Origin: Acetofilamentum sp.
GTDB lineage: Bacteria; Bacteroidota; Bacteroidia; Bacteroidales; JAFGUD01
Direction: 5' to 3'
NCBI GenBank assembly: GCA_020722645.1
Contig: DYKL01000003.1
Span: 1-40,985, forward strand
Length of the DNA: 40,985 nucleotides
Below, piece by piece: positions 4-40,985 of this stretch. The notes beneath the pieces are model-generated. The model was not told the origin of the DNA. It was given only the letters and a program-made list of their open reading frames with translations, and did not search any database. Made by a program: the position numbers and the translations under genes. Within the stretch, counting starts at the first letter, position 1, and the number at the start of each line of letters is the position of its first letter.

Positions 4-152
4 TCCTTAAATCTGTAAGTCTATACTTATATATCTGAAATTCAGTCAGGTGAAATACTTACAGTACAGGCACCTGACTGGTGCAAACTACATGTTGCAG
101 GTGTTTTCACCTGCAACCACTTACGAAAAGACTTGCGGATTTAAGGTTTTTT
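4..152 (+). ncRNA. Candidate structured small RNA or 3'-UTR element ending in an intrinsic terminator (family not recognised)
   Basis: A 17-bp closing helix pairs 5-21 with 130-146; its two G.U pairs (14:137, 16:135) would be A.C mismatches on the other strand. There are two perfect 10-bp hairpins: 43-52/71-80 (18-nt loop) and 94-103/108-117 (UUUU loop). A T6 run follows at 147-152. No ORF. The 5' side may continue beyond the window. Confidence 0.4.
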
Positions 153-8276: not shown

Positions 8277-8281
8277 TTTCA

Positions 8282-14880: not shown

Positions 14881-14897
14881 AAAAACCATTAATTTAT

Positions 14898-15030
14898 CAA
14901 TAGTTCGGTATATTTTGAAGTAATTCGTTAATATTCAGCAAATTGATTTTGTATGTGTAACAAATTAGTAGTTGATTGAAAATCAATAATTTGCTAATTT
15001 GCTAATTGAAAAATTAACGAATTATTGTTT
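14898..15030. repeat. Dispersed inverted-repeat element, copy A (133 nt)
   Basis: Aligns by eye at roughly 80% identity with 39272-39423. Has a perfect 12-bp inverted repeat, taattcgttaat (14921-14932) / attaacgaatta (15013-15024), and an inner palindrome ATTGAAAATCAAT. Five phased AATT-octamers lie at 14988-15027. An outer IR, aaccattaat 14884-14893 / attaatggtt 15031-15040, flanks the element. Confidence 0.8.
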
Positions 15031-15121
15031 ATTAATGGTTTTATATAAATATAGGTTAAAATCTGATATTATTTTATTTTGATTTATAAAATTCAGATAT
15101 TTAATATTTTTTGAAAAAAAA

Positions 15122-20251: not shown

Positions 20252-20276
20252 ATTTGATTTTTTTTTTTGTTAAAAA

Positions 20277-20882: not shown

Positions 20883-23492
20883 TTAAAATTCAACACCTAA
20901 TAATATTATATCATCAATTTGTTTGTGTTCTCCTTTCCAGTTTAAGAAAAGGTTTTCAATAATATTTGAAAATTCAAAAATGCTTGCATTTTTGTTTTCT
21001 TCAATTGTTTCTCTGATTTTGTTGTTTTTCATTTTCTCTCCTTTTTCACCACCAACTTGGTCAGCAAGACCATCAGAAAACAAAAATATTTTGTCGTTTT
21101 GCTTGTAATTAATAACGTAGTTTTCAAAGTTTTTTTCAGTTTTATTTTTCATAGGAATTCCTCCTATGGCTTTCAAAGAACCTTTATACTGTACTAATTC
21201 ACCATTATTTTTCAGATAATAAAGAGGTCTGTGTGCCCCTGCAAAGTCTAATTGATTTGTTTCAAAATTTATTTTACATAATGCAATATCCATACCATCT
21301 CTTGCTTCTGCGTCTATATCGTCTTGCTTTAATGTTTTTCTGACATTGAAATGAAGTTTGTCAAGGATTTGCCCTGCATTTAATTCTTTTCCTTCGGTAG
21401 ATACTATGTTGTTAATCAGGAAGTAACCAATAAAAGAAAGCAGTGCGCCCGGAACTCCGTGTCCGGTACAGTCTATGGCTGCAATATAAACGATGTTTTG
21501 TTGTGGGAAAATCCATGGAATATCGCCGCTTACTACATCGCGGGGGCGATAAAACATAAATGATTTGGGTAATGCATTCCTGATTTTATCTTCAGTCGGC
21601 AGAATAGCAGTTTGTATTCTTCTGGCGTAGTTAATACTTTCAGTGATACTTTTGTTCTTTTGTTCTATTTCTATTTGAATAAGTTTTTGTTCCGTAATAT
21701 CGTGAGCAACAAAAAGAACGGTTTCTAATTCATTGTATTCGTTAAATTCTGGGATTGCGTTAAATTGAACAATGCGGTCGTTCTGTCCTTCTGAGCCAGG
21801 GAAAACAGTTTCAGATTCAAATTTTACGTTGTTTTTTAAAATCTTGTCAAGGGCATTCTGAAAAACAAGTTCAATTTCAGCAGGTAAATTAGCTTCATTT
21901 ATGATATTTCCGATAAGGTTCCTTTTTCCGATACTGATGAACTGTTCTGCGATAGGATTTGCGTAAAAGAACCTACCTTCTGTATTTACTCGCACAATCA
22001 TATCAATTGAATTTTCGGAAAGAGCTTGCATTCTACCGCTCATTCTTTGTGCTTTTTCAGCAATTTTACGAACAGTTATGTCACGTGTATTAAAAATTAT
22101 ACCGTTAATAGCGGGGTTTTTGAGAAGATTTCTGCCGGTTGTTTCCAGCCAGATTTCTTCATTGTCGGATTTTTTGAATGTTGTTTCAAATGAAACAGGT
22201 TTTTCGGGATTATCAATTAAAGTAACAAAAGAAGATTTGAATTTATTGTTTGTATCTTCATCAAATACTAAAAATCCGTTTAGACCAACCAGTTCTTCGG
22301 CATTCATTCCAAGAATAGATTTTATAGACGGGCTTTCATAAGTGATAGTTCCGTTTTTGTTGTAAATTGAAATAACCTCAGATGCATTTTCCAACAAAGA
22401 ATAGAGCCTTTTTTGAGAACGTTCAACTTCTGCAATTTGGGCAGCAAGTTTACGGTTTGTTTCTTCCAGCTCCTTTTGAGTTTTCTTCATCTGTTCTGCA
22501 TTATATCTTAATTCTTCTTCATTTTTTTTGAGTTTATAAGTCATCTCCCTTGATTCTTGAAGAAGTTTTTCGGTTCTTTCGTTAACTTTAAGATTAAATA
22601 CAGTTTGCCCGACTATGTTTGAGATTTCTCTCATTAAGTTGATGGTTTTTTCAGGAAGTTTAGTTTCTAACGAAGCTATTTCTATAACACCCTGAAGTTT
22701 TTCATCACCCAGAAGTGGTGTAATTATAAGTGTTTTAGGTTTTTTGTCGCCAATAATACCGGAAGAGATTGTTGTGTAATTTTCGGGAATTTCACGTCTA
22801 TAAATAATGTCTTTTTCAAAAGCCGCAGCTCCAATAAGTCCTTGTCCGACTTTGAAAGATTTGTCAAAATATTTGCGGCGGTTGTATGCGTAATTAGCAA
22901 TGTTTTTTAAAAGTTTGTCATCTTCGTCATAAATGTAAAAAGCCCCTTGAACTGCATTCATATAATCAACCAAAGTCAATGTAGTCTCGTATGCTAAATC
23001 TTCAATTTTATTGTGAAAACGAAGTATGTCGCCAACTAATTCCTTCCCTTTTGCAATCCAGCTTTGTTCGGCTTCTCTTTGTGATGTTTCGATAAGGTTA
23101 TTACGCATAAGTAATAATGATTGCCCAAGCATATCGTTTGGATCGACTTCTAAGTCAGCAGCAAGTTCTCCTTGTCCGATTTTTTTTGCAAAATCAGAAT
23201 TTTTTTGGAGAACATCATTCATTTTGATGATAGTATAGTTAAGCTGATTTCTTATTTTTATAGTATTAATAATAAGAATATGAAATACTAGTGCTAAAAC
23301 TAAAGGTGCAGTATCTACAATATATATAATTGTATTGTTTGAGTGTATGTATTTAATACCGTTTATGTCAAATAAAAGGTCAAACCGATTTATTTCTATA
23401 ATCCAAGAAGTTAATAGAAACTGAAGTCCTATCAGAAATCCCAATAAGGTGTATTTATATCTTGTTTTTTTATTTATTGTGTCTTTATTCAT
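20883..23492 (-). CDS. Membrane-anchored GAF-PAS-PAS sensor with SpoIIE/PP2C phosphatase domain (SiaA-like role)
   Basis: 869 aa. Two N-terminal TM helices. GAF-like segment (GQGLIGAAAFEKDIIY...LQGVIEIASL). Two PAS/PAC-like segments (...FNTRDITVRKIAE and ...VAHDITEQKLIQ). PP2C motifs SGDIPW, AIDCTGHGVPGALLSF, FSDGLADQVGG and IDDIILLGVEF. Confidence 0.85.
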   Translation of the reverse strand: MNKDTINKKTRYKYTLLGFLIGLQFLLTSWIIEINRFDLLFDINGIKYIHSNNTIIYIVDTAPLVLALVFHILIINTIKIRNQLNYTIIKMNDVLQKNSDFAKKIGQGELAADLEVDPNDMLGQSLLLMRNNLIETSQREAEQSWIAKGKELVGDILRFHNKIEDLAYETTLTLVDYMNAVQGAFYIYDEDDKLLKNIANYAYNRRKYFDKSFKVGQGLIGAAAFEKDIIYRREIPENYTTISSGIIGDKKPKTLIITPLLGDEKLQGVIEIASLETKLPEKTINLMREISNIVGQTVFNLKVNERTEKLLQESREMTYKLKKNEEELRYNAEQMKKTQKELEETNRKLAAQIAEVERSQKRLYSLLENASEVISIYNKNGTITYESPSIKSILGMNAEELVGLNGFLVFDEDTNNKFKSSFVTLIDNPEKPVSFETTFKKSDNEEIWLETTGRNLLKNPAINGIIFNTRDITVRKIAEKAQRMSGRMQALSENSIDMIVRVNTEGRFFYANPIAEQFISIGKRNLIGNIINEANLPAEIELVFQNALDKILKNNVKFESETVFPGSEGQNDRIVQFNAIPEFNEYNELETVLFVAHDITEQKLIQIEIEQKNKSITESINYARRIQTAILPTEDKIRNALPKSFMFYRPRDVVSGDIPWIFPQQNIVYIAAIDCTGHGVPGALLSFIGYFLINNIVSTEGKELNAGQILDKLHFNVRKTLKQDDIDAEARDGMDIALCKINFETNQLDFAGAHRPLYYLKNNGELVQYKGSLKAIGGIPMKNKTEKNFENYVINYKQNDKIFLFSDGLADQVGGEKGEKMKNNKIRETIEENKNASIFEFSNIIENLFLNWKGEHKQIDDIILLGVEF

Positions 23493-23562: not shown

Positions 23563-26500
23563 TTATTCAAAAGTATCAAGCCATTCTTTATATAAATTAT
23601 CATCTTCTTGGTCAAATTTATCTGTTATGCTATCTTCAATTTCTTTTAGACGTTGATTTTCTTCTTCGGCTAACTGAAATTCTTTTAGTAATTCTTCCAT
23701 ATTCTGAGTCATAATTTTTTCTTGAATTACAAGTTCATTTTCAAGTCTTTTTTGTTCAGAAATATCAAAAGCCAGATATAATATTTTTACAATATTTCCA
23801 TGTATGTTTTTTACAGGAGTATATTGGTTTAAAAGCCAGACATCTTCGTCTGTCATTTTGTTTTTTCTTTTTACAACTATTTGTTGAAGTTCTCCTTGGT
23901 TGACTTTTTTCCAAATTTTTTCAAATTCTTCAAATTCTTCTTCTGGAATGAATTCTTTAATGTTTTTACCAATCATTATTTCAGGATCATATCCTAAAGT
24001 AGAAACGTGAATACTGTTTGAAGAAACAAAAGTACCTTCGGGTAAATACTCAGCTCGCATTAGTGTTTGATCCACCGCAGAAAACAATGCTGTTAGTTCC
24101 AGTTCGTTTTGTTGAGTTTTTTCGAGTAGTTCTTTTGTTTGTTGTTCCATTTTTTTTTCTTCGGTAATATCAATACCAAGATACAGTATTTCAATTACAT
24201 CACCTTTTGTGTCAAAAACCGGATTATATTGGTTTTTCAACCAAATGTCTTCGTCTGTAGTTTTGTTTTTTCTTCTAGCAACAAGTTCTTTTTGATTCCC
24301 TTTACAAACTTCTTTCCAGAGAATTTCAAAATCCTCTTTTTCATTTTCAGGAATAAATTCAAGAATTTTTTTACCAATCATACTGTTTACTTCATAACCC
24401 ATTATTGATTGGTGTACCTGATTTGATTCTATGAACACACCTTCTGTTGTATATCTGGCGCGCATAATAGTCCTATCAATACCGCTAAGAATGTTTTTAA
24501 GGGCAAGTTCTTTTAATTGAGCTTCACTAAGAAGGTCGGCAGCCATTTGTTCTACTTGTTTCTGTTCTGTTATGTCTATTGCAAGATATAAAACTTTAAT
24601 AACACTGCCTGTATTATCTTTGATAGGTGTGTATTGGTTTAATAACCAGACATCTTCTCCGGTTGCTTTATTGGTTCTTTTTACGGTAATTTGTTCAAGG
24701 TTTCCTTCTTTTACGCTATCCCATATAATAATGAAATTTTCTTTGTCTTCTTCGGACAAAAATTCCAGTATATTTTTACCAATCATATTTTGTTTGTCAT
24801 ATCCGAGAGTGTGGGTATGAATTTCGTTTGCATCAACAAAAGTACCATCGGGAAGATATTCTGCTCTCATAATTGCCTGGTCTATACCGGATAAAATACC
24901 GCTTAACTGAATTTCTTTTTGTTGAGCTTCGGTAAGTAGCTTTGCAGCAATTTGTTCTGCCTTTTTTTGTTCGGTAATATCAATACCCAGATAAAGAATT
25001 TTAATAACGTCACCGTCTTGATTTTCGATTGGCGTGTATTGATTTAACAGCCATATATCTTCTCCGGTGGACATATTGATTCTTTTGACAGTGGCTTGTT
25101 CCAGATTACCTCTCTTGACTCTGTTCCAAATTTTATGAAAATTATCTCTTTCGTTTTCGGGAATAAATTCAGTAATATTTTTCCCTTTCATATTTTCAAT
25201 GTCGTATCCCAGAGTTTGAGCGTGAATATCGTTTGCATTGATAAAGGTTCCATCAATATAATATTCGGCACGCATTATTGCCTGGTCGATACCGGTAAAT
25301 ATACCTCTTAGTTCAAGCTCGTTTTGTTTTGTTTGAGTAAGCAGCTCCTGTGCTTTTGCTTCTGCTTGTTTTTGTTCAGTAATATCAATAGCCAGATAGA
25401 GGATTTTAACAATATTATTATTTTCGTCAGAAATAGGGTTGTATTGATTTATTAACCATATTTCTTTGCCAGTACTTTTATTTACTCTTTTAACTGTAAG
25501 TTCTTTTGGCTTTCCGGAAACAACTTCTTTCCATAATTTTTTAAAATTTTCTCTTTCTTCTTCCTGAATGAAATCAAGGATGTTTTTACCTGACATATTC
25601 TGAATTTCGTAACCCATAATTCTTTGGTGAACAGAATTCGAGTTAATAAAGGTTCCGTCGACTGAGTATTCAGCACGCATAATTGTTCTATCTACGCCGG
25701 AGAGAACTCCTTTAAGCTCAACCTCTTTTTCTTGAGTTTCTTTAAGTAATTTTTGGGATTTTTCTTCAGCAACTTTTTGTTCGGTAATGTCAATAGCAAG
25801 ATAGAGAACTTTAATAACTTTGCCTTTGTCATCTTTGATAGGAGTGTACTGGTTCAAAAGCCAAATATCGGCTCCTGTCATTTTATTCTGACGTTTAACT
25901 GTAATTTGAATAGGTCTTCCGGCAGATACATCAGACCAAATTCTGTTAAAATTGTTAAGGTCTTCTTTTTGGATAAATTCGAAAATGCTTTTTCCCTTCA
26001 TTGCTTCAATTTCATAACCCATTGTTTGTCTGTGAACAAGGTTTGAATTGATGAATTTACCGTCAGGAGAATATTCGGCACGCATAAGAGTTTGGTCAAC
26101 ACCTGTAAGAATACCGGTCATTTCGATTTCGTTTCTTTTAGCTATCTGGTGTGCTTTGGTAACTTCCTGCATAGTATCCTGCAGAATTTTTTCACGGTTA
26201 GCTAATTCATCGGATTTTTTCTGAGATTCTTTAAGAAGTTCAATAGTTCTTGCGTTGATTTTTGCAGTTTCGAGAGTAGCAGCAATAGAACGGCAAAGCG
26301 TTTCAGAAAATTCCACTTCAAATTTTTCGAAATTTCTGATAGAAGCTATTTCAATTACCCCAAGTAAACCATTGTCGGTAAGTAAAGGGAGAATAAGAAG
26401 GTTGTTTGGTGGAGCATCACCAAGACCGGATTCAATTTCAAGATAGTCAGATGGTATTTGAGTCAGATGAATAGATGATTGGTCAATAGCAACTGTTCCG

Positions 26501-27690
26501 ATTAATCCTTCACCCAAATTGATTTTTTTTGAATAGAATTTTTTGCGGTCGTAAGCAAAAGCTCCAAAAAGTTCAAGGAATGGGGGTTGATTTTCAGGTG
26601 TTTGCAATATAAAAAGACCCCCGACAGAAGCTTCAAGATATTTAACAAATTCTTTAATGATTACATCAGTAAGTTTTTTCAAATCGTTTGAGAACTGTCT
26701 CATTAATTCAGAAAACTTGTTAATTCCAATGTTTGCCCATTCTTTTTGTTTGTCTTCTTTCAGCCTCAGTTCTAATTCTTTCTGAGAATTTACAAGTTGT
26801 TCTCTAAGAGAAATTATTGTGCTTGAAATTTTATCGTTTTTACTTTGTTCGACAATCTGAAATTCGTAATTTTTATTTTTAAGTTCTGATATATAGTTGT
26901 TTATTCTGTTGTAGTTGTCGTTTATTTTAATAATAGAATCAATCGTTTCCGAACTGATTTTTTTGTCGTCAGGAGTAAGTTTAATATTTTCACCCGCAGA
27001 GAGTTTTTTTAAATAATGATTTATGGTCTGAGGAAGTCTTAGATTATCTTTAAAGAATATTATGCTTAAAAAAGCAAAAAGGATTACGAAGACAAAAAAG
27101 CTGATTATTGTAAATAAAATAGTATTTTTTATGTTTTTTTGAAGTTCAATTATTGTTTTTGTAAAATTTTGATTGTTTTCTACTTTGAGCTTTTTAAGTA
27201 TAACTGCAATGTTTTGAAAAGAAAGTAATTCCTTATTAAACAGTCTGCTTATGTTTTTCAGGTTAATTTCTTCTTTTTTATATTCGTTAAAGATTTCGTA
27301 AACAATGTTCTGAAATATTTGGTATTCTGTTGAAAATTCATCAATTATGATATTTTCATCTACGCTTGAAGTAATGTTTTTGAATTGTTTTGTTATTTGT
27401 AAAATAGAGTCATTGGTTTGAAAGAAAGCGTTTTGAATTTCAATAAAATCGTCTAATTTTTCGTAAGAAATATGATTAAATACAATAAATGAATTTATAA
27501 TCCTTTCAGAATTATTTATTAAGTTGTTTTTTTGGAGGAAAGTGTTGGTCAGGTAGTTTTTCTGATTTTCAATTCTGTTCTGAAATGTATTGAAATTTAC
27601 TATAAGCAAAATAATATATACCCCAACAATTGAGGATAAAATTAAAATTTTCAATCTAATTGATAAGTTTTTCAGATTTATTTTGCTCAT
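23563..27690 (-). CDS. TM-(HAMP-like)-GAF-6xPAS sensor protein with no recognisable output domain
   Basis: 1375 aa. TM helices at about aa 14-33 and 191-213. GAF-like segment (GEGLIGTVAIDQSSIH...LLGVIEIASI). Six tandem 135-aa PAS/PAC-like repeats (xGxLxGVDxxIMRAEY...YLAIDITEQK). A 58-aa helical, acidic C-terminal tail. Confidence 0.85.
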   Translation of the reverse strand: MSKINLKNLSIRLKILILSSIVGVYIILLIVNFNTFQNRIENQKNYLTNTFLQKNNLINNSERIINSFIVFNHISYEKLDDFIEIQNAFFQTNDSILQITKQFKNITSSVDENIIIDEFSTEYQIFQNIVYEIFNEYKKEEINLKNISRLFNKELLSFQNIAVILKKLKVENNQNFTKTIIELQKNIKNTILFTIISFFVFVILFAFLSIIFFKDNLRLPQTINHYLKKLSAGENIKLTPDDKKISSETIDSIIKINDNYNRINNYISELKNKNYEFQIVEQSKNDKISSTIISLREQLVNSQKELELRLKEDKQKEWANIGINKFSELMRQFSNDLKKLTDVIIKEFVKYLEASVGGLFILQTPENQPPFLELFGAFAYDRKKFYSKKINLGEGLIGTVAIDQSSIHLTQIPSDYLEIESGLGDAPPNNLLILPLLTDNGLLGVIEIASIRNFEKFEVEFSETLCRSIAATLETAKINARTIELLKESQKKSDELANREKILQDTMQEVTKAHQIAKRNEIEMTGILTGVDQTLMRAEYSPDGKFINSNLVHRQTMGYEIEAMKGKSIFEFIQKEDLNNFNRIWSDVSAGRPIQITVKRQNKMTGADIWLLNQYTPIKDDKGKVIKVLYLAIDITEQKVAEEKSQKLLKETQEKEVELKGVLSGVDRTIMRAEYSVDGTFINSNSVHQRIMGYEIQNMSGKNILDFIQEEERENFKKLWKEVVSGKPKELTVKRVNKSTGKEIWLINQYNPISDENNNIVKILYLAIDITEQKQAEAKAQELLTQTKQNELELRGIFTGIDQAIMRAEYYIDGTFINANDIHAQTLGYDIENMKGKNITEFIPENERDNFHKIWNRVKRGNLEQATVKRINMSTGEDIWLLNQYTPIENQDGDVIKILYLGIDITEQKKAEQIAAKLLTEAQQKEIQLSGILSGIDQAIMRAEYLPDGTFVDANEIHTHTLGYDKQNMIGKNILEFLSEEDKENFIIIWDSVKEGNLEQITVKRTNKATGEDVWLLNQYTPIKDNTGSVIKVLYLAIDITEQKQVEQMAADLLSEAQLKELALKNILSGIDRTIMRARYTTEGVFIESNQVHQSIMGYEVNSMIGKKILEFIPENEKEDFEILWKEVCKGNQKELVARRKNKTTDEDIWLKNQYNPVFDTKGDVIEILYLGIDITEEKKMEQQTKELLEKTQQNELELTALFSAVDQTLMRAEYLPEGTFVSSNSIHVSTLGYDPEIMIGKNIKEFIPEEEFEEFEKIWKKVNQGELQQIVVKRKNKMTDEDVWLLNQYTPVKNIHGNIVKILYLAFDISEQKRLENELVIQEKIMTQNMEELLKEFQLAEEENQRLKEIEDSITDKFDQEDDNLYKEWLDTFE
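23689..26118 (-). repeat. Six in-frame 405-bp tandem repeats encoding the PAS modules
   Basis: The conserved DNA block ggtaatatcaata(c/g)c(c/a)agata recurs at about 23760, 24165, 24570, 24975, 25380 and 25785, giving a 405-nt period. The protein period is exactly 135 aa (aa 525-1334). Confidence 0.9.
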
Positions 27691-28381: not shown

Positions 28382-31300
28382 TTATAATTTGAAACCGATT
28401 ACTAAAATATCGTCAGTTTGAGGTGTTGTTGCTCTCCAATTTTCAATGTTTTCATCAAGAATCTGTTTTTGTTCAAGCATAGGTTTTTTATGAATTTCAA
28501 AAAGCAATTCTTTAAAACGCTTAATCATAAATTTTGAATGGTCGTCACCTCCGAATTGGTCGGCATAACCGTCAGAAAATATATAAAACCAAGTAGGAGA
28601 AGTGTATTTAATTGTATCTTTTTCAAAATCACCGAACTGAAATCCACCGATTGATTGTCGGTTGCCCTTAACTTTGAATACTTCATCGTTTGAGATGTAG
28701 AACATAGGATTTTTTGCACCGGAATATTCCAAAATGTTATTTGCTTTGTCAATAACACATAATCCCATATCCATACCGTCTTGATTTTCAGTAGTATCTT
28801 GTTTAAGAGCAAATCTAACATATTTATTTAATCTGACTAATATTTCCGAGGCATCTGAAATATTTTCGCTTGTAACAATAGTAGTAAGAATTTCAGCACC
28901 AATCATGCTCATAAATGCACCGGGAACTCCGTGTCCAGTGCAGTCCACAGCAGCGATAAAAACTTTGTCTTTTCGTTGAGCAAACCAATAGAAATCGCCT
29001 GAAACAATGTCTCTGGGTTTGAAAAGAATAAAATAGTTATCTAAATGAGCCTTGATATTTATTTCAAGAGGAAGCATTGCTGTTTGAATTCTTTTTGCGT
29101 ATTCAATGCTTGAAGTAATATCTTTATTTATTTTCTGTATTTTTTCGTTTTGTTCAGCTAATTTGTCTCTTTGTGTAAGAATTTCTTCTTTTTGCATTTC
29201 AATTTCTTTGGTGCGAAGTTTTACTTGTTCTTCGAGATATTGCTTTTGCTTTCTCAGTCTTCTTGTATAAAGATAAACAATTAGCCAAATCAATAAACCG
29301 GCTATAATAATATATCCGATAAAAGCAAAAACTGTCAGATACCAAGGCGGTTTAATAATGAATTCATAAGTTGCCAAAGTACTTTCAACATTGAATTGAT
29401 TTCTGGCTTTAACCATAAATTTGTATTCGCCGGGTTTAAGGTTAGAATAGTCTTTATAATTTTCTTTTGTCCATTCCGACCATTTTTTGTCGTTACCTTC
29501 AAGAAAATAAGTGTATTGAATGTTTTGTGGCGATTGATAGTAAGCTCCGCTGAAATTAAATCTCAGGTTGCCGAATTTATAAGGAAGGGTAGGTATGTCT
29601 TTTAATTTTTGTTCAAATTCAATCAATGAGTCAGTAGTGGTGAAAGTTCCGTTGAAAATTATAGAATCAGAATTTAGAATTTTTACTGATCTTATAAATG
29701 CCGGAAAAGAAATAAGATAATTGTTTTTGATTTTGGAATCGTAATGTATAATTCCTTCTGTACTGCCAATAATATATTCAGAATCTTCAATCTGGTCAAT
29801 AAAGAAAATTTTGTTTTTTAAAGAAAGAAATTCATCTTTAATTTTAATATATCCGGTGTCTGTTTTTTTAAGCAAACAAAGTTCGTATTCTGTTTGTTCT
29901 TTTAACTGAATTTGTTCTTTGTACCAGTAATTATCGTGTGAGTCGATTGTTATGAAAAAAATTTGTGATTTTTTGTTTATTTGATTACCTTCGTTTATAA
30001 CTGAATTTAGTTTTTCATAAGGTTCAAACTTGTCTGAATTGTAATTATATGTAAAAATTCCTCCAATTGTTGTGAAAAGAATTTCGTCCTTAATTTTGAA
30101 TATTTTGTTGTCTAATTGAGAAGGGAGTCCGTTTAATCCGCTTGTTGTGTCAAAAACAGTAAGTTGGTCTATTTTAGTGTAATTTTCATCAAATTTTATT
30201 CTGTAAATACCTTGTGTTTGGTTTGCTACCCAAAAGTTACCGTGATCGTCTTGTTCAAGATAATTACCGCTTATATTTTGAATATCGTGAGAGAGTTCCC
30301 ATTTGTTATTTTCTTTTTTGTATATAAAAATAACAGTTGAAATTCCAATAATTGTGTTCGGGTCGTCAAAAGGGATTCTGAATACTTTTACTCCCCTTAA
30401 AGCTCTGTCTATTCCTTCGGCAAGAATGTAATTTGCTTTGAAATCTTGTATTTCATATAAACCGTTGTCAGATGCAGCTATAAGTTTTGATTCAATAATG
30501 TCTAAAAATTGAGTTTTAATATCGCCTTGTTCGTTATTGATAAGGTTGAATTTGTCAATGTTAATTTTGTCTTCGTAAGTGCCCCATTTTTTGTAATATA
30601 CACCCGAGGCAGTGGCTATGTATAAAATATCATTAAATATTTTTGAATAAAAACTTGTAGCTTCTTTGTCAAAATTGTAATATTGTTCGTAAATAGAGAA
30701 AGGAGAGAAAAGGTAAATAGATGAAATACCATTCTCGGTGCAAAGCCATAAATTGTCTTGATTATCGAAGCCGGCACGTCTAATTATATCATTTTTCAGA
30801 CCGTTTTGAACGTTAATAAATTGAATAATTTTAAAATTTTTGTCGGTAATAAGTAACCCACCGTTGTATAGCATAAATCCCAGATAATCGTCTTTGATGT
30901 TAATAGCTCTATAGATATTATGGTTTAGAATGTTGTCAATAGGAGAATTAATTTTGTTAAAGTTACCGTCTTTCATTGTAAACATACCATCGAACCATGT
31001 AAGAATAAGCAATGAATCGTTTTTGTAATCCAAAACGGCTCTAACCATAGAATTGCTTAAAATGCTCGAATTATCAATAAATTTTAAATCATTGTTTTCA
31101 ATCTGATACAGTCCTTTGTATTTTGTATAAATGTAAATTTCATCAAGGGGTTTAAAAGTCATAAGAAACAGACCTTCAGGGAAATATTGTTCGACAGGAA
31201 GAACAATAATAGAATCGTTTTTGTACAAAAATAATTCGTCAAAAGTTTGAAAAACAACAGATGAATCTTTTGAAATATATATATCCCAAATTTTTTGAAA

Positions 31301-31681
31301 GTCTTGAAAAGCAGGAGGCACTTTGTTTTTTATACTTTGAAATATTAGACTTCCGTTTTTAGTTGGTTTTAAGTAACCAATTTCGTTGTCTCCTCCCACA
31401 TACACAGTGTTTTTGTCGTCAATACAGAGTGATGTTACCGACGTAGATGCAACTTTAATTTTGTTCCAGTTTTGTCCGTCAAATTCCAGAACCACTCCGT
31501 CAGAGTTGCCGAAATACATAAGCCCTCTTTGATCTTGAACGACAATCCAATTTTGCCTTGCTCCTTTGTAATCGTCAGTTGTGTAATTAATCACATAAGG
31601 AATTGCTCCCGTATTTTTTATTTGTGAGTAACAATTGATTGAAAGGAGTAACAGAATTATTATTTTTGCAATACTTTTCAT
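28382..31681 (-). CDS. Periplasmic beta-propeller (two-component regulator propeller) / Y_Y_Y sensor with TM helix, coiled coil and SpoIIE/PP2C phosphatase domain
   Basis: 1099 aa with a signal peptide. A long beta-rich region is followed by a Y_Y_Y-like block (YQSPQNIQYTYFLEGNDKKWSEWT...LKPGEYKFMVKARN). TM helix YLTVFAFIGYIIIAGLLIWLIVYLY. PP2C motifs SGDFYWF, AVDCTGHGVPGAFMSM, FSDGYADQFGG and TDDILVIGFKL. Confidence 0.85.
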   Translation of the reverse strand: MKSIAKIIILLLLSINCYSQIKNTGAIPYVINYTTDDYKGARQNWIVVQDQRGLMYFGNSDGVVLEFDGQNWNKIKVASTSVTSLCIDDKNTVYVGGDNEIGYLKPTKNGSLIFQSIKNKVPPAFQDFQKIWDIYISKDSSVVFQTFDELFLYKNDSIIVLPVEQYFPEGLFLMTFKPLDEIYIYTKYKGLYQIENNDLKFIDNSSILSNSMVRAVLDYKNDSLLILTWFDGMFTMKDGNFNKINSPIDNILNHNIYRAINIKDDYLGFMLYNGGLLITDKNFKIIQFINVQNGLKNDIIRRAGFDNQDNLWLCTENGISSIYLFSPFSIYEQYYNFDKEATSFYSKIFNDILYIATASGVYYKKWGTYEDKINIDKFNLINNEQGDIKTQFLDIIESKLIAASDNGLYEIQDFKANYILAEGIDRALRGVKVFRIPFDDPNTIIGISTVIFIYKKENNKWELSHDIQNISGNYLEQDDHGNFWVANQTQGIYRIKFDENYTKIDQLTVFDTTSGLNGLPSQLDNKIFKIKDEILFTTIGGIFTYNYNSDKFEPYEKLNSVINEGNQINKKSQIFFITIDSHDNYWYKEQIQLKEQTEYELCLLKKTDTGYIKIKDEFLSLKNKIFFIDQIEDSEYIIGSTEGIIHYDSKIKNNYLISFPAFIRSVKILNSDSIIFNGTFTTTDSLIEFEQKLKDIPTLPYKFGNLRFNFSGAYYQSPQNIQYTYFLEGNDKKWSEWTKENYKDYSNLKPGEYKFMVKARNQFNVESTLATYEFIIKPPWYLTVFAFIGYIIIAGLLIWLIVYLYTRRLRKQKQYLEEQVKLRTKEIEMQKEEILTQRDKLAEQNEKIQKINKDITSSIEYAKRIQTAMLPLEINIKAHLDNYFILFKPRDIVSGDFYWFAQRKDKVFIAAVDCTGHGVPGAFMSMIGAEILTTIVTSENISDASEILVRLNKYVRFALKQDTTENQDGMDMGLCVIDKANNILEYSGAKNPMFYISNDEVFKVKGNRQSIGGFQFGDFEKDTIKYTSPTWFYIFSDGYADQFGGDDHSKFMIKRFKELLFEIHKKPMLEQKQILDENIENWRATTPQTDDILVIGFKL

Positions 31682-37273: not shown

Positions 37274-39292
37274 TTATTCAATGTTTTTATCCGGATTCTC
37301 GAAATGAAATATTTTTTTGTTGATTTTAGATTTGTCGTCGATTTCTCTTATTTGTATAGTAAATATAATATCTTCGTATATTTGTTTGATGGTGAACGGT
37401 ATTTTAATATCAGACTTTTTTGAGATTTTTTTATAATTTGAATATTCTACGATTTGAACCGTAGTAAATTTTCCGTCAATTTTAAAATAGGTTTCGGTTT
37501 TGATTTTTTCTTTGAAGTTTAAATCGTAATAATCAAGATAATAGAAGTTAAAGGGAGTGTTGATTTTTAAAACAAAAATGTTTTTTTTCATTAATGCTGT
37601 ATCGCAAATAATTTCGGGTTCATAATTCAATTTAGTGTAAAATAATTCAGGGAAAATATAAGCTTGATAAATTTTTGTCCAAAATACTTCGCTTGTATAA
37701 AATTCTGCACCTAATGCCGAACTGTCGAGCCATACTTCTTCATTTGCAATCTGTAAATTTTGTAAAAGCGTATCTTCGTCTATAATAAGTTGAGTTTTGT
37801 AATAGTACAAATCCGGATATTTTTTGTATATTATGCCTTCAACATTATAAATGGTATCTGCGTTATAAACAGCATCGAATTTAATTGTAAGGTTTTTTAG
37901 TTTAGTGGCTGCATTGCAGGCATTTAAGTAGTCATTGATGATATAATCACTGTCAAAGTTTTTTCGAATTATTTTATACAAATTTTTGTCTTTATCATAA
38001 AAGTTAACTTTGAATATTTTAGCAATTGAATACAACTGGCATATTAGTTCCTGATAATTTCCTCTTACATATATTGATAAGTTATCCGGCTTAAAAACTT
38101 CTGATGAAATGTTATTTATTTCTGAAGCAGGGATTTTATTAATATTCTGAGCATAAGTTTCAAAATATGATTTAGATAATTCGTATCTGTCTGTAATATA
38201 GGCATATTGAGCGATATTATATGGATTTTGCAAAGTATTAAAAAAACTGTTTACAATATCAGATTTTGCGTTATTAATTTCAGCTTTTGACGTTCCGTAA
38301 ATTACCATATCTCTTATAGATTGAATGCTTTGAAATACTGCCTGCGACAAATCATTTGGTTTAGTATCAAATGCCAGATAAAAATCTGTTATTAAAGGTC
38401 TTGGAGTTATCGAAAATTCAATGTTTTCGGCATAATTATATTTTGGTAATATTTCAGTTATTTTATTTTCAAAAACTTTTGCTGCAATTTCAACTGCCAT
38501 AAAATTTTCTTCATCATAGAAATGTTTTACCGGACGGCTGATTGCAACTTGTGGAGATGTTTTTCTGTCGTTGTAAAAAACTTGAGTTTCTCCGATAAAA
38601 TTGCTTAAAGTGAAAATTTGTTTTGTAACATCGTCAAAAGTCCATAGAGCGAAGTGTCTTGTTGCATATTTTACTATCGTATCGTGTTCAATATTTCCGA
38701 CAGCAATAATGTATGAATGGTTTGCTTTTATTATTTTTTTGTGAATTTCCGATACAATAAATTCATCTATATAACTCATTTCATTTTCATCAGGGAAAAC
38801 AGCCCAGTCGCTAAAATCACCAAATGAATAGTATCTTGATTCGTGCCATAATTCAGTGCGTGAATTTTTTTCATTTTTAATTATACTGATAAGGTAATCT
38901 CTTGATTTTTCTACATTTTCTTTACTTAAATCAGTGTATAGCAAGTTCAATCTCATAAAGTTCATCAATGAATCAATCGCGTCGTTTTCGCAGACTAAAT
39001 TTTTTGAGATTTGAGTTTTGTATGTTTTTTCAAATCCTGTTAAATGGCTTAGTATTTCAATTGCACCGGGATTTTCTCTGTCGCTGTTTGAATGGAAGTC
39101 AATTATAAATTTGAAATTGATGTAATCAAAATCATCTGTTTTAACTGTAATAATAGATAAACCATTTGATAAAACAGTCTTTTTGTAATCAGATAAATCT
39201 TTTAAAACTTCTTGAGAATACGAACTGAAGCAAATTGATAAAAAAAAGATTATTATTATGTTGTTTTTTAACAATAGTTCGGCATATTTCAT
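37274..39292 (-). CDS. Secreted M16 (pitrilysin)-like protein lacking the HxxEH zinc motif
   Basis: 672 aa with a signal-like N-terminus. LSNGLSIITVKTDD...NPGAIEILSHLTGFEKT aligns to the M16 N-terminal region, but the zinc site reads EILSH. No HxxEH occurs anywhere in the protein. Confidence 0.4.
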   Translation of the reverse strand: MKYAELLLKNNIIIIFFLSICFSSYSQEVLKDLSDYKKTVLSNGLSIITVKTDDFDYINFKFIIDFHSNSDRENPGAIEILSHLTGFEKTYKTQISKNLVCENDAIDSLMNFMRLNLLYTDLSKENVEKSRDYLISIIKNEKNSRTELWHESRYYSFGDFSDWAVFPDENEMSYIDEFIVSEIHKKIIKANHSYIIAVGNIEHDTIVKYATRHFALWTFDDVTKQIFTLSNFIGETQVFYNDRKTSPQVAISRPVKHFYDEENFMAVEIAAKVFENKITEILPKYNYAENIEFSITPRPLITDFYLAFDTKPNDLSQAVFQSIQSIRDMVIYGTSKAEINNAKSDIVNSFFNTLQNPYNIAQYAYITDRYELSKSYFETYAQNINKIPASEINNISSEVFKPDNLSIYVRGNYQELICQLYSIAKIFKVNFYDKDKNLYKIIRKNFDSDYIINDYLNACNAATKLKNLTIKFDAVYNADTIYNVEGIIYKKYPDLYYYKTQLIIDEDTLLQNLQIANEEVWLDSSALGAEFYTSEVFWTKIYQAYIFPELFYTKLNYEPEIICDTALMKKNIFVLKINTPFNFYYLDYYDLNFKEKIKTETYFKIDGKFTTVQIVEYSNYKKISKKSDIKIPFTIKQIYEDIIFTIQIREIDDKSKINKKIFHFENPDKNIE

Positions 39293-39423
39293 AGTAATTT
39301 GTTAATATTCAGCGAATTATGTTTATGCGAGTAACAAATTGGTAAATAATTGAAAATCAATAATTTGCTTCCTTCGTTATTACTCAGGATGACGCTAATT
39401 GAAAAATTAACGAATTATTGTTT
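39272..39423. repeat. Dispersed inverted-repeat element, copy B (152 nt)
   Basis: Homologous to 14898-15030. It carries a 25-nt segment (tccttcgttattactcaggatgacg) where copy A has aatttg. The IR is taatttgttaat / attaacgaatta, with one T:G position. Its left end overlaps the first 7 codons of the 672-aa gene. Confidence 0.8.
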
Positions 39424-39428
39424 TAACA

Positions 39429-40502
39429 TTAAATCGTTATATGTTTTTCAAGAAAACTATTTAAGTCTGTGTTCTTTAATTTTTTGATATTTTCTTCAAA
39501 AGTTTTGATGTTTTCAGTGAAAAATTGTATGAAATTTTCTTCGAAAAGTTTATTTTGTTGTATTGAAAAAAATAACTTTTTATTATGCAAGTATTTTGCC
39601 AAATATTCTTGTTCGGTTTGACCGGGAGTCGGCACCAAAATTGCTGTTTTTTGTATTGTTAGTAAGTCCATTATAGTTGAGTAACCTGCACGTGCTATAA
39701 TAATTTTTGTATGTTTAAGCAGCGAATAAAATTCATTTGTCGAAATATGATTTTTTATAGTTATGTTTTTTTCCAAATAAAAGTTTTTTGAAAAAGGTTT
39801 TCCACTCAAAATTAGTGTTTTAAAATTAGTGTTTTTAAGTAATAATTTAATTTTACTTTCGAAAATGCTTCTTTGTGGTTCGGGACCTGAAACGATACAA
39901 ATAATTTCATATTTTTCAACCATTGATATTTCTTTAGCGTCTGAAAACCTTGATAACAGCCCTGATTTATAAACAGGAATTTTCAATTTATACGAATCAG
40001 AGAGTTTACCGCTGAAATTGTCTTCGTTATCCGGTATCCAGCATTCATCAAATTTTTCAATATTAAATCTGTTAATTTTATTAATAATTTTAGTGAAAAT
40101 TTTAAAGTTTTTAGGCATCAATATATTTATCTGATGGCAAATAAATATTGATTTTACCTTTTTTGAAAAAAATCCAAATCTATTATCAGAAATAATAACG
40201 TTGATTTTATATTTATTAATGTATTTTTTTAAGAATAATCTGTTTTTGATGTAAAAAATAAACAATCTGGGGATATAAAATAATATTTTAAAGGGTAGTA
40301 ATGTTTTGTTTTTTGTATATTTTATTTTCAGAAATGGTGCTTTTATTATTTGATAATCATTTAGTTCTTGTTCTAGAAAATAAAAGGAATCTCCATCAGC
40401 GGCTACAAAAACATTATGTTTGGTTTTTAGTCGCAAAATTATCGGAACTATTCTTGTAGCGTGTCCGATACCCCAATTTAAAGGCGAGATTAGGATATTC
40501 AT
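39429..40502 (-). CDS. GT-B glycosyltransferase (MurG/GT28-like; TIGR00661-type)
   Basis: 357 aa. N-terminal LNWGIGHATR. C-terminal ARAGYSTIMDLLTIQKTAILVPTPGQTEQEYLAKYL is typical of the GT28-like C-terminal domain. Confidence 0.65.
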   Translation of the reverse strand: MNILISPLNWGIGHATRIVPIILRLKTKHNVFVAADGDSFYFLEQELNDYQIIKAPFLKIKYTKNKTLLPFKILFYIPRLFIFYIKNRLFLKKYINKYKINVIISDNRFGFFSKKVKSIFICHQINILMPKNFKIFTKIINKINRFNIEKFDECWIPDNEDNFSGKLSDSYKLKIPVYKSGLLSRFSDAKEISMVEKYEIICIVSGPEPQRSIFESKIKLLLKNTNFKTLILSGKPFSKNFYLEKNITIKNHISTNEFYSLLKHTKIIIARAGYSTIMDLLTIQKTAILVPTPGQTEQEYLAKYLHNKKLFFSIQQNKLFEENFIQFFTENIKTFEENIKKLKNTDLNSFLEKHITI

Positions 40503-40513
40503 TAAACAGTTTT

Positions 40514-40929
40514 AATTAGCCAATTTGTCAATTCGATAATTAGCCAATTCGTCAATTCGTTAATTAGCCAATTAGCCAATTCGTCAATTCGTTAATTAGC
40601 CAATTCGTTAATTAGCCAATTTGTCAATTCGTTAATTAGCCAATTTGTCAATTCGATAATTAGCCAATTCGTCAATTCGTTAATTAGCCAATTAGCCAAT
40701 TTGTCAATTCGATAATTAGCCAATTCGTCAATTCGTTAATTAGCCAATTAGCCAATTCGTCAATTCGTTAATTAGCCAATTCGTTAATTAGCCAATTTGT
40801 CAATTCGTTAATTAGCCAATTTGTCAATTCGTTAATTAGCCAATTAGCCAATTCGTCAATTCGTTAATTAGCCAATTCGTTAATTAGCCAATTTGTCAAT
40901 TCGATAATTAGCCAATTAGCCAATTCGTT
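40514..40929. repeat. Phased octamer word array, 52 units of AATTNGNY
   Basis: Hand parse gives AATTAGCC x22, AATTCGTT x13, AATTTGTC x7, AATTCGTC x6 and AATTCGAT x4, all in a single 8-nt register with no indels. Stops occur in all frames. Confidence 0.95.
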
Positions 40930-40985
40930 AATTATCACATTATCACATTATCACATTATCACATTATCACATTATCACATTATCA
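40930..40985. repeat. Octamer tandem repeat (C/A)ATTATCA x7, in phase with the preceding array; truncated by the window end
   Basis: AATTATCA followed by CATTATCA x6, reaching the last base of the window. Confidence 0.95.

What the first reader, a model, noticed from the sequence alone, without database searches (positions are those of the whole stretch)
40514..40985. At least 472 bp of perfectly phased 8-nt 'words' with grammar-like order, abutting the glycosyltransferase start codon
Seen: 59 consecutive octamers keep one register with no indels. Fifty-two use five words fitting AATTNGNY: A=AATTAGCC x22, C=AATTCGTT x13, D=AATTTGTC x7, B=AATTCGTC x6, E=AATTCGAT x4. They are followed by (C/A)ATTATCA x7, running to the window end.

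Word order is constrained. B and D occur only after A, E occurs only after D, and C and E are always followed by A. This yields the phrases A-B-C, A-D-E, A-D-C, A-C and A, and higher-order blocks such as ADEABCA, which recurs three times. Every frame has stops, so the array is non-coding. It starts 11 nt upstream of the ATG (40502) of the GT gene, so any promoter for that gene must lie inside or beyond it.

Inference: possibilities include a slipped-strand, length-variable promoter or spacer (phase or rheostat control of a surface-glycan gene), an iterated protein-binding array, or a structural DNA element. I do not recognise it as a described repeat family.
Basis: seen in the sequence. Interest (0 to 1): 0.7.

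Follow-up and report, generated by a model that had tools for sequence, protein, structure and literature searches.

The report
Giant octamer tandem repeat before gene
A real, non-coding array of at least 59 in-phase 8-base units sits 11 bases in front of a sugar-transferase gene. It is an unusually long example of a short repeat tract that many Bacteroidota carry at gene boundaries, and its function is unproven.

Summary

The "grammar" is largely duplication history. A 17-word (136 bp) block occurs twice, which is longer than the order rules alone predict.

The array is not an assembly artefact. Two other assemblies of the same strain enter it, and one differs only by a 32-bp (4-word) gap.

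Relatives with the same gene order (FTCD-GT-M16) have a 110-200 bp hairpin-bearing spacer there and no array. The array is therefore a lineage-specific expansion.

(AATTNGNN)n tracts are widespread: 88 of 118 hit loci are Bacteroidota, with a median of 7 units and a maximum of 27. They are anchored to gene boundaries with a fixed polarity. They overlap stop codons in sense, or lie 4-40 nt upstream of start codons in antisense, as here. One short tract sampled without bias is conserved across a clade rather than hypervariable.

No Bacteroidota -7 promoter motif lies in the array, so it is probably transcribed as a leader or intercistronic RNA.

The closest described relatives are long simple-sequence repeats with 5-11 nt units and MacGregor's TAACTGA heptamer arrays. 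I rate it a new variant of a known kind. Classical phase variation of a surface-glycan gene is not supported.

The parts
40514..40929 (+). 52 in-phase octamers fitting AATTNGNY (words A-E). The strand carrying the G is the + strand, so the array is antisense to the GT gene.
40930..40985 (+). A second sub-array in the same register, AATTATCA followed by CATTATCA x6. It is cut by the end of the window, so the true length and far flank are unknown.
40503..40513 (-). An 11-nt spacer (TAAACAGTTTT on the + strand) between the array and the GT start codon.
39429..40502 (-). Glycosyltransferase gene (357 aa; GT28 C-terminal domain, Glyco_trans_1_3, MJ1255-like) immediately downstream of the array.
   Evidence: The N-terminus matches homologues.
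40514..40649 (+). First copy of an exactly duplicated 17-word (136 bp) block, ADEABCAABCACADCAD.
40690..40825 (+). Second copy of the 17-word (136 bp) block.
40538..40601 (+). Stretch ABCAABCA, within which an independent assembly (L001) lacks four words (32 bp). The exact position of the gap is ambiguous inside the repeat.
39272..39425 (-). Copy 2 of a dispersed intergenic element of about 135-150 nt, inserted between the GT stop and the M16 start. Read on the minus strand it carries AATTCGTT AATTTTTC AATTAGCG (39416-39393), starting 12 nt after the GT stop. These are the same words as in the big array.
   Evidence: Relatives have GT and M16 adjacent.
14897..15033 (-). Copy 1 of the same dispersed element, between convergent genes. 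On the minus strand it reads AATTCGTT AATTTTTC AATTAGCA AATTAGCA AATTATTG (15023-14984). It has inverted-repeat ends and folds as a long hairpin (z = -4.8).

Best explanation
The feature is a genuine, non-coding, higher-order tandem repeat. It has 8-nt subunits that are grouped into 8-, 16- and 24-nt phrases (A, AC, ABC, ADE, ADC). These phrases have in turn been copied in blocks of up to 136 bp.

The array fills the spacer in front of the GT gene. In relatives, this spacer separates the GT gene from a co-directional formiminotransferase-cyclodeaminase (FTCD) gene.

I read it as a runaway, lineage-specific expansion of a kind of short (AATTNGNN)n tract that is common at gene boundaries in Bacteroidota. 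The window's array has that class's typical start-proximal geometry. It lies a few nucleotides upstream of a real start codon, with the G-containing strand antisense to the gene.

Growth and shrinkage occur by slipped-strand mispairing or unequal exchange between identical multi-word blocks. This is inferred from the block structure and from the 32-bp, 4-word difference between two assemblies.

No Bacteroidota -7 promoter box lies within the 483 nt upstream of the ATG. The array is therefore most probably transcribed, either as a long 5' leader or as FTCD-GT intercistronic RNA. Any effect on GT and the downstream M16 peptidase would then come through the length or structure of the leader, or through factor binding to it. 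It would not come through promoter-spacer phase variation.

Shown: the anatomy, the independence from assembly, the absence in syntenic relatives, the class distribution, the polarity, and the conservation of one short tract.

Inferred: the expansion mechanism, transcription of the array, and any regulatory effect.
For: Block duplication goes beyond the grammar. The longest repeated block is 17 words, against a Markov mean of 9.2 (P=0.007) and a phrase-shuffle P of 0.001.

Two other assemblies carry the same GT and enter the array. L002 is 100% identical and stops 28 nt into the array. L001 has 0 mismatches and one 32-nt gap.

In relatives whose GT is 52-59% identical, synteny is FTCD-GT-M16-HupE-DUF6272-OmpA. 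Their 110-200 bp FTCD-GT spacers contain hairpins and no octamer array.

Of these, 88 are Bacteroidota, including isolates and a complete chromosome. The 96 Bacteroidota arrays have a median of 7 words, a maximum of 27, and on average 0.56 distinct words per word.

The polarity is strong. A stop codon lies within 10 nt of the array on the sense side in 29/43 cases, against 3/42 on the antisense side (p=5e-9). A start codon lies within 20 nt in 13/39 cases when the array is antisense to the gene, against 2/39 when it is sense (p=0.003).

Short tracts are conserved. An ortholog sample chosen without reference to the pattern covers the region upstream of hmgA. It shows the same 5-word tract 8 nt before the ATG in six genomes of the Flavobacterium johnsoniae clade, with 3 variable sites, while the DNA just upstream is unalignable. 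The tract is absent in two more distant species. The pairs L013/L082, L012/L118 and L062/L105 point the same way.

No TAnnTTTG motif occurs in the array on either strand, whereas four other window genes have one 26-38 nt upstream of their starts.

The same geometry was reported for TAACTGA heptamers. They lie in forward orientation 1-43 nt before starts and in reverse orientation right after a stop. Long arrays are missing from syntenic relatives, and contigs end inside the repeats (PMC4679880).
Against: - The far end and true length are unknown, because the window ends in the array.
- The 32-bp difference could be a short-read collapse rather than real polymorphism.
- Transcription was not measured. 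A non-canonical promoter inside the array cannot be excluded.
- Typical start-proximal tracts are G-poor on the gene-sense strand. This array is not: its gene-sense words are GGCUAAUU, GACGAAUU and so on. Its gene-sense RNA is predicted to fold strongly (-91 kcal/mol over 298 nt, z=-13). It may therefore behave differently from the short tracts.
- The class statistics come from a capped, pattern-ascertained sample and my own ORF caller.
- Loci with AATTNG arrays also contain many other 7- and 8-nt arrays. The AATT-G core may therefore be one motif among many rather than a specific signal.
Confidence: 0.5

Rival explanations
1. Contingency locus. The array is a slippage-prone promoter or spacer tract whose unit number switches or tunes transcription of the GT gene.
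For: There is a 32-bp (4-unit) difference between two assemblies that are otherwise 100% identical. The array lies directly upstream of a glycosyltransferase. Identical multi-word blocks would support misalignment.
Against: - No -7 (TAnnTTTG) motif, with or without a -33 partner, occurs in the array on either strand.
- The units are heterogeneous, with five words.
- The GT is a conserved, syntenic, housekeeping-type gene, not part of a variable glycan locus.
- Short tracts of the same kind keep their unit number across species.
- The length difference may be an assembly collapse.
Confidence: 0.12
2. Iterated protein-binding array. The invariant AATT-G core, repeated every 8 bp, would be a landing pad for a DNA-binding protein such as a nucleoid-associated, ribbon-helix-helix-type or regulator protein. 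The variable positions would tune affinity.
For: AATT and G are invariant in all 52 words, while positions 5, 7 and 8 vary. Word vocabularies are lineage-specific (Jaccard within groups 0.097 against 0.049 between groups, P=0.0005), as expected if the words co-evolve with a trans-acting factor. Short tracts are conserved. From my own knowledge, the 8-bp period resembles the ParG/parH and omega-heptad operator arrays.
Against: - No partition, replication or obvious cognate regulator gene lies in the 41 kb.
- Five words can be linked by about five substitutions, so the restriction to three positions is not significant within this array alone.
- Core invariance in the other arrays was imposed by my search pattern.
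- The same loci hold many 7- and 8-nt arrays with unrelated motifs.
Confidence: 0.12
3. Minisatellite inside a MITE-like dispersed element. The array would be the expanded internal repeat of a third copy of the 135-150 nt inverted-repeat element seen twice in the window, comparable to the BrickBuilt MITE of Porphyromonas gingivalis.
For: Two copies of a dispersed element with inverted-repeat ends carry an in-phase tract, AATTCGTT AATTTTTC AATTAGCA/G (AATTAGCA) AATTATTG. These are the same or near-same words as the array's C, A and f. They are also the best matches to the array's interior elsewhere in the window. BrickBuilt is a precedent in Bacteroidales (PMC4596501).
Against: - The left flank of the array shows no significant similarity to the element ends, and the matches of array words to the element are only 12-20 nt at E=0.15.
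- The far flank is missing.
- A metagenome scan for the element core gave only chance hits.
- The repeat units of BrickBuilt are 23 nt long.
Confidence: 0.15
4. Assembly or contig-end artefact. The array, or most of its length, would be produced by cycling through a de Bruijn-graph loop.
For: It lies at a contig end. It contains 136-bp exact duplicates, which are longer than usual k-mers. Two assemblies disagree by 32 bp.
Against: - Three independent assemblies (the window, JGI 3300000227 and Logan SRR1559028) all run from the GT gene into the same words.
- The word order is aperiodic, not a simple cycle.
- Comparable arrays exist in isolate genomes and a complete chromosome.
Confidence: 0.04

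Closest known systems
Intergenic TAACTGA heptamer direct-repeat arrays of Beggiatoaceae, Cyanobacteria and some Bacteroidetes (MacGregor 2015, PMC4679880)
   Same: - Short-unit direct repeats that are intergenic and mixed with related variant units.
- Most lie within a few nucleotides upstream of a start codon in one orientation, and in the opposite orientation when immediately after a stop codon.
- A few very long arrays occur (up to 43 copies) in Bacteroidetes, and these are absent from close relatives with the same gene neighbourhood.
- Contigs often end inside the repeats.
- All of these properties were reproduced here for the octamer arrays.
   Different: The unit is 8 nt with an AATT-G core and three free positions, not the fixed heptamer TAACTGA. 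The array here has at least 59 units with higher-order blocks. The TAACTGA arrays have no established function either; binding of S1, Csp or CsrA was only proposed.
Long simple-sequence repeats with 5-11 nt units in free-living prokaryotes (Mrazek et al. 2007, as summarised in PMC4679880)
   Same: A tandem array of a 5-11 nt unit, far longer than chance, that is intergenic and found in a non-pathogen-type genome. Slippage is the assumed generator.
   Different: That class was defined on near-identical units, with heptamers the most abundant. Bacteroidota were not among the ten genomes richest in 5-11 nt repeats that the summary lists. The array here is heteropolymeric, with an invariant core and a higher-order structure.
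BrickBuilt MITE-borne minisatellite of Porphyromonas gingivalis (Klein et al. 2015, PMC4596501)
   Same: It is found in Bacteroidales. It is a spacer-less tandem repeat that is always intergenic and close to coding sequences, with variable repeat number and possible promoter activity.
   Different: Its unit is 23 nt. It has defined leader and tail segments with inverted-repeat ends and 19 copies per genome. Here the far end is unknown, the near flank shows no element end, and the subunit is 8 nt.
Contingency-locus simple-sequence repeats of host-adapted pathogens (promoter or 5'-UTR tracts, for example AGAT repeats upstream of uspA2, cited in PMC4679880)
   Same: A repeat tract directly upstream of a gene for an envelope-related enzyme, with a possible difference in unit number between samples.
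   Different: The units are heterogeneous, there is no promoter motif in the tract, and the gene is conserved and syntenic. Sister tracts in other species are conserved rather than variable.
Higher-order repeat organisation of satellite DNA (my own knowledge, for example alpha-satellite higher-order repeats)
   Same: Diverged monomers are arranged in fixed multi-monomer units that are themselves amplified. This gives 'grammar-like' order without any syntax.
   Different: The scale is different (8-nt monomers, 472+ bp in total). The host is a bacterium and the position is between genes.

Membership tests
Long simple-sequence repeat (LSSR) with a 5-11 nt unit | Head-to-tail repeats of a 1-11 nt unit that are longer than expected by chance in that sequence | tested here: met
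   59 in-phase octamers. TRF score 550. 110 matches to the core pattern against 1.5 expected.
Long simple-sequence repeat (LSSR) with a 5-11 nt unit | Units essentially identical (a simple sequence) | tested here: not met
   There are five AATTNGNY words plus (C/A)ATTATCA. Only the AATT-G core is invariant.
TAACTGA-type start-codon-proximal direct-repeat arrays | The unit is the heptamer TAACTGA or a one-base variant | tested here: not met
   The unit is an octamer, AATTNGNY.
TAACTGA-type start-codon-proximal direct-repeat arrays | Intergenic, ending within a few to a few tens of nucleotides upstream of a start codon, in a fixed orientation | tested here: met
   The array ends 11 nt from the GT ATG. 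Its orientation (G strand antisense to the gene) is the one enriched at start codons in the class: 13/39 against 2/39, p=0.003.
TAACTGA-type start-codon-proximal direct-repeat arrays | Long arrays are lineage-specific and absent from relatives with the same gene neighbourhood | tested here: met
   L121-L125 have the FTCD-GT-M16 order with 110-200 bp spacers and no array.
Contingency-locus (phase-variable) simple-sequence repeat | The tract is placed so that unit number changes the reading frame or the promoter -35/-10 (-33/-7) spacing | tested here: not met
   The array is upstream of the ATG, so it has no effect on the reading frame. No TAnnTTTG or TTTG-N18-22-TAnnTT motif occurs in the array on either strand.
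Contingency-locus (phase-variable) simple-sequence repeat | Tract length is polymorphic among cells or close isolates | tested here: inconclusive
   There is one 32-bp gap between two assemblies that are otherwise identical. Both are short-read assemblies of a repeat that contains 136-bp duplicates.
Contingency-locus (phase-variable) simple-sequence repeat | The controlled gene is a variable surface or virulence determinant | tested here: not met
   The GT is MJ1255-like, has more than 7,900 homologues, and sits in conserved synteny next to FTCD and an M16 peptidase.
MITE-borne minisatellite (BrickBuilt type) | The repeat block is flanked by leader and tail segments with terminal inverted repeats | tested here: inconclusive
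   The near flank has no significant match to the ends of the dispersed element. The far flank lies beyond the window.
MITE-borne minisatellite (BrickBuilt type) | Many copies per genome with variable repeat number | not testable with these tools
   Only 41 kb of this genome is available. Two copies of an element that shares words with the array were seen. The metagenome scan for its core gave only chance hits.
Iteron or centromere-like protein-binding array | Adjacent gene for the cognate replication, partition or repressor protein | tested here: not met
   Pfam annotation of 23 of the 24 window ORFs of 100 aa or more shows no Rep, Par or ribbon-helix-helix gene. The one not scanned, 2959-3285 (+), lies inside the larger YfhO ORF on the opposite strand.
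Iteron or centromere-like protein-binding array | Demonstrated sequence-specific protein binding to the repeats | not testable with these tools
   This needs EMSA, pull-down or ChIP.
Known structured RNA family (Rfam) | A match to a curated covariance model at its gathering score | tested here: not met
   There are no Rfam matches anywhere in the window.

The most novel reading that the evidence does not exclude
AATTNGNN octamer tracts may form a phylum-wide, polar cis-element system in Bacteroidota that works at the RNA level. Sense tracts, (AAUUNGNN)n, start at stop codons and would make 3'-UTR modules. Complementary antisense tracts, (NNCNAAUU)n, sit just before start codons. The three free positions would give lineage-specific 'words' that act as addresses for a trans-acting RNA or RNA-binding protein, including possible pairing between 3'-UTR and 5'-leader tracts.

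On this reading, the window's array of at least 59 units would be a hyper-expanded leader module of the GT operon. The 3' region of the same gene carries the complementary words AAUUCGUU and AAUUAGCG 12 nt after its stop codon.
Probability: 0.08. Interest if true: 0.85.

Novelty: new variant of a known kind. Interest (0 to 1): 0.45.

Why it matters
On its own, the array is a striking but probably local expansion, of limited consequence.

Its value is as a pointer. Following it showed that short, heterogeneous octamer tracts with an AATT-G core are common in Bacteroidota. They are anchored to stop and start codons with a strict polarity and use lineage-specific words. In one sample chosen without reference to the pattern, the tract is conserved across a clade while neighbouring non-coding DNA has diverged beyond alignment.

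Bacteroidota start translation without Shine-Dalgarno pairing and use unusual promoters (my own knowledge), and little is known about their leader and trailer signals. A conserved, repeat-built element at gene boundaries could be a tractable handle on that question, for example in Flavobacterium johnsoniae at hmgA.

It also gives a second, independent case of the unexplained geometry described for TAACTGA heptamers. This suggests a general phenomenon rather than a curiosity of one motif.

Tried and rejected
1. **Finding the far side of the array.** Exact-protein look-up of the GT gave only two short contigs, both ending in the array. Viral-contig scans for the A-B/D-C words gave nothing. A scan for (CATTATCA)3 gave one unrelated viral contig.

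2. **BLAST of the array** against the plasmid and phage collections gave no match, possibly because of low-complexity masking.

3. **Rfam** gave no family match in the window.

4. **The 'third copy of the dispersed element' idea.** The near flank is not significantly similar to the element, and only 12-20 nt word-level matches exist. I kept this as a weak rival.

5. **A promoter inside the array.** There is no TAnnTTTG on either strand. By eye, TTGACA and TTGACG hexamers on the GT-sense strand have no -10 partner at 16-18 nt, and Bacteroidota do not use that consensus anyway (my own knowledge).

6. **A Rho-utilisation site.** I rejected this because the C-rich transcript would be the strand antisense to GT in this array, but the other strand in most class members. 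There is no consistent C>G skew.

7. **A 'decay gradient'** (perfect units next to the gene, degenerate units further away) as the cause of the polarity. The in-phase core signal falls to background within one or two words on both sides, so I rejected it.

8. **RNA or DNA folding as a diagnostic.** Both strands fold better than shuffles (z=-13, -8 and -8). This follows trivially from the quasi-palindrome AATTNGCNAATT and is not informative.

9. **Literature searches** for octamer or 8-bp repeats in Bacteroidetes, Flavobacterium and Bacteroides, and for the word AATTAGCA, found no description of this subfamily.
Full report
**1.

Positions 40514-40985 parse into 59 octamers in one register without any indel. 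The counts are AATTAGCC (A) x22, AATTCGTT (C) x13, AATTTGTC (D) x7, AATTCGTC (B) x6 and AATTCGAT (E) x4. These are followed by AATTATCA x1 and CATTATCA x6, which run to the last base of the window.

The word string is ADEABCAABCACADCADEABCAADEABCAABCACADCADCAABCACADEAAC-fFFFFFF.

TRF sees a 24-nt period (17.3 copies, score 550) and a perfect 8-nt period at the end. The core pattern occurs 110 times against 1.5 expected, and outside the array it occurs only at two short sites. All six frames are closed, with a longest open stretch of 47 codons.

The neighbouring gene is on the minus strand (39429-40502). Its ATG is 11 nt from the first word, and homologues start with the same residues, so the start codon is real.

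**2. The array is not an artefact, but its exact length is insecure**

The identical GT protein is encoded on two other contigs from independent data sets. The Logan contig is 100% identical and stops 28 nt into the array. The JGI contig covers 245 nt of array with 0 mismatches over 1,439 nt, except for one 32-nt gap equal to four words.

This gap is either a real length polymorphism or a collapse during short-read assembly. The array contains a 136-bp exact duplicate, so short reads cannot settle the question.

**3. The 'grammar' is largely duplication history**

The string breaks into phrases: ABC x6, A x5, ADE x4, AC x4 and ADC x3. A 17-word block occurs twice (words 0-16 and 22-38). That is longer than a first-order Markov model with the same transition rules produces (mean 9.2, P=0.007), and longer than shuffled phrases give (P=0.001).

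Few founder phrases copied in nested blocks produce order rules without any syntax, as in higher-order satellite repeats.

The five words can be linked by about five substitutions. The restriction of variation to positions 5, 7 and 8 is therefore not significant within this array alone.

**4. Context**

The window is 29% G+C chromosomal DNA of a Bacteroidales-like organism. The GT is an MJ1255/TIGR00661-like enzyme with thousands of homologues, the nearest only 56-59% identical.

In those relatives the gene order FTCD - GT - M16 peptidase - HupE - DUF6272 - OmpA is conserved. Their FTCD-GT spacer is 110-200 bp and contains hairpins but no octamer array. The array is therefore a lineage-specific expansion inside a conserved, housekeeping-type gene cluster, not part of a variable glycan locus.

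No Bacteroidota -7 box (TAnnTTTG) occurs on either strand in the 483 nt upstream of the ATG. Four other genes in the window have one 26-38 nt before their start codons. Either the promoter lies beyond the array or GT is co-transcribed with the upstream gene. In both cases the array would be transcribed.

**5. A wider class**

I scanned one genome per species for five consecutive AATTNG units at 8-nt spacing. By record title, 88 of these are Bacteroidota: Chitinophagaceae, Flavobacterium, Capnocytophaga, Paludibacter, rumen Bacteroidales and Saprospiraceae. They include isolates and one complete chromosome.

The 96 Bacteroidota arrays have a median of 7 words and a maximum of 27, and they are heterogeneous, with 0.56 distinct words per word. 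The window's array of at least 59 words is a clear outlier in length.

The same 694 kb of loci also hold 65 period-7 arrays and many period-8 arrays with other motifs. AATTNG is therefore one subfamily in genomes that are generally rich in 7-8 nt repeats.

**6. Polarity at gene boundaries**

I oriented each array so that it reads AATTNGNN, and called genes with my own longest-ORF method.

- A gene whose sense strand matches the array ends within 10 nt of the first word in 29 of 43 cases. Often the stop codon lies inside the first words (AAT TAG, A ATT TGA, t|AA).
- A gene end facing the other side of the array is that close in only 3 of 42 cases (p=5e-9).
- Start codons lie within 20 nt in 13 of 39 cases when the array is antisense to the gene, against 2 of 39 when it is sense (p=0.003).
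- Many of these starts are plainly genuine N-termini: hmgA at 8 nt, thrC at 9 nt, pdxA at 18 nt and atpH at 5 nt.

The window's array, antisense to GT and 11 nt from its ATG, has exactly this start-proximal geometry. The in-phase signal does not decay gradually on either side, so the polarity is not a decay gradient.

**7. Short tracts are conserved, not hypervariable**

I sampled orthologs of the hmgA upstream region without reference to the pattern. The same five-word tract lies 8 nt before the ATG in six genomes of the Flavobacterium johnsoniae clade. The unit number is unchanged and only three sites vary, while the DNA just upstream cannot be aligned. Two more distant Flavobacterium species lack the tract.

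Three ortholog pairs found through the pattern agree:

| Pair | Array identity | Flank identity |
|---|---|---|
| L013/L082 | 64/64 | not computed separately (93.9% over the whole 4 kb alignment) |
| L012/L118 | 39/40 | 89% (coding) |
| L062/L105 | 46/48 | 85% (coding) |

Word vocabularies are lineage-specific. Jaccard similarity is 0.097 within groups and 0.049 between groups (P=0.0005).

**8. Local relatives of the words**

The window holds two copies of a 135-150 nt intergenic element with inverted-repeat ends, at 14897-15033 and 39272-39425. The second copy is inserted between GT and M16, which are adjacent in relatives.

On the minus strand these copies carry AATTCGTT AATTTTTC AATTAGCA/G ... 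AATTATTG, the same or near-same words as the big array. They are the best matches to the array's interior elsewhere in the window. However, the matches are short (E=0.15), and the array's near flank does not resemble the element ends. A MITE-borne origin therefore remains a weak rival.

**9. What it most likely is and does**

My best reading (confidence 0.5) is that this is a runaway expansion of a start-proximal Bacteroidota octamer tract. It would have grown by slipped-strand mispairing or unequal exchange of multi-word blocks. It is probably transcribed as a leader or intercistronic RNA, and any effect on GT and M16 would come through leader length, structure or factor binding.

The anatomy, independence from assembly, lineage specificity and class properties are shown. 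The expansion mechanism, transcription and any regulatory effect are inferred.

The rivals are:

| Rival | Confidence |
|---|---|
| MITE-borne minisatellite | 0.15 |
| Classical phase-variable promoter tract | 0.12 |
| Protein-binding array | 0.12 |
| Assembly artefact | 0.04 |

The array differs from typical class members in one respect. Its gene-sense words contain G, and its gene-sense RNA is predicted to fold strongly. That folding follows from the quasi-palindrome AATTNGCNAATT and is not diagnostic.

**10. Comparison with what is known**

The feature fits the broad class of long simple-sequence repeats with 5-11 nt units (Mrazek 2007, as summarised in PMC4679880).

It reproduces the geometry reported for TAACTGA heptamer arrays. 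Those lie in forward orientation 1-43 nt before starts and in reverse orientation right after a stop. They are mixed with related units, long arrays are absent from syntenic relatives, and contigs end inside the repeats. It is not a member of that family, because the unit differs.

BrickBuilt of P. gingivalis is a Bacteroidales precedent for an intergenic minisatellite.

I found no description of the AATTNGNN octamer subfamily or of its polarity.

**Verdict**

This is a new variant of a known kind, with interest 0.45. The most novel reading still open is an RNA-level, word-addressed system of gene-boundary elements. I give it a probability of about 0.08.

Noticed in passing
window 14897-15033 and 39272-39425: A dispersed intergenic element of about 135-150 nt is present in two copies that are 84% identical; copy 2 has a 19-nt insertion. 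It has inverted-repeat ends (CAATAGTTCGG... / ...CGAATTATTG). Copy 1 folds as a long hairpin (z=-4.8). Copy 2 is inserted between the GT stop and the M16 start, which are adjacent or overlapping in relatives. A similar end motif (TGATAACGGTTCGGCA) appears in the FTCD-GT spacer of relative L121.
   Followed up: partly
L003-L120 (genome-contig hits): AATTNGNN arrays are anchored to gene boundaries with a fixed polarity. In sense they overlap or abut the stop codon (29/43 against 3/42, p=5e-9). In antisense they lie 4-40 nt before real start codons (13/39 against 2/39 within 20 nt, p=0.003). No explanation so far accounts for both halves of the rule.
   Followed up: partly
L135-L138, L012 and L118 (about 48 nt upstream of the hmgA ATG); L139 and L140 for contrast: The five-word tract TTCAAATT TTCGAATT ATCTAATT TAYWAATT ATCTAATT lies 8 nt before the homogentisate dioxygenase start. 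It is conserved in six genomes of the F. johnsoniae clade, while adjacent non-coding DNA is unalignable. It is absent in two more distant Flavobacterium species.
   Followed up: yes
L003-L125 (694 kb of Bacteroidota loci): These loci are very rich in other short-unit arrays. TRF finds 65 period-7 and 137 period-8 arrays, with many unrelated motifs such as TGGTTTAT x11, CCTGTAAA x14, ATAATGG x12 and CTACTAC x11. Word vocabularies of the AATTNG arrays are lineage-specific (P=0.0005).
   Followed up: partly
L063 2820-3770 (Saprospiraceae MAG) and L004 4949-5097: Several AATTNGNN arrays lie in opposite orientations within 1 kb. Adjacent inverted arrays could pair as long imperfect hairpins.
   Followed up: no
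L134 5258-5318 (IMG/VR viral contig): AATTATCA followed by CATTATCA x6 is the same sub-array as at the window end. Here it sits in the loop between two arms of about 25 nt of a long inverted repeat. It is otherwise unrelated to the window.
   Followed up: no
window 23563-27690 (minus strand): A 1,375-aa ORF contains six tandem 405-nt (135-aa) repeats that are 62-71% identical. They correspond to repeated PAS domains and follow a GAF domain.
   Followed up: partly
window 5544-13653, 20883-23492 and 28382-31681: Three tandem paralogous proteins of about 900 aa carry 7TMR-DISM and SpoIIE (PP2C) domains. Two more SpoIIE-domain sensors, a SiaC-family phosphoprotein and a DUF6272 gene (19859-20867) lie nearby. 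Together they form a dense cluster of partner-switching-type signalling genes.
   Followed up: partly
window 40-125 and L124/L125 about 5905-5975: The palindrome CAGGTGTTTTCACCTG occurs within nested hairpins downstream of the alanine-dehydrogenase-like gene. The same palindrome occurs in the FTCD-GT spacer of a relative. It may be a shared REP-like or terminator hairpin.
   Followed up: no
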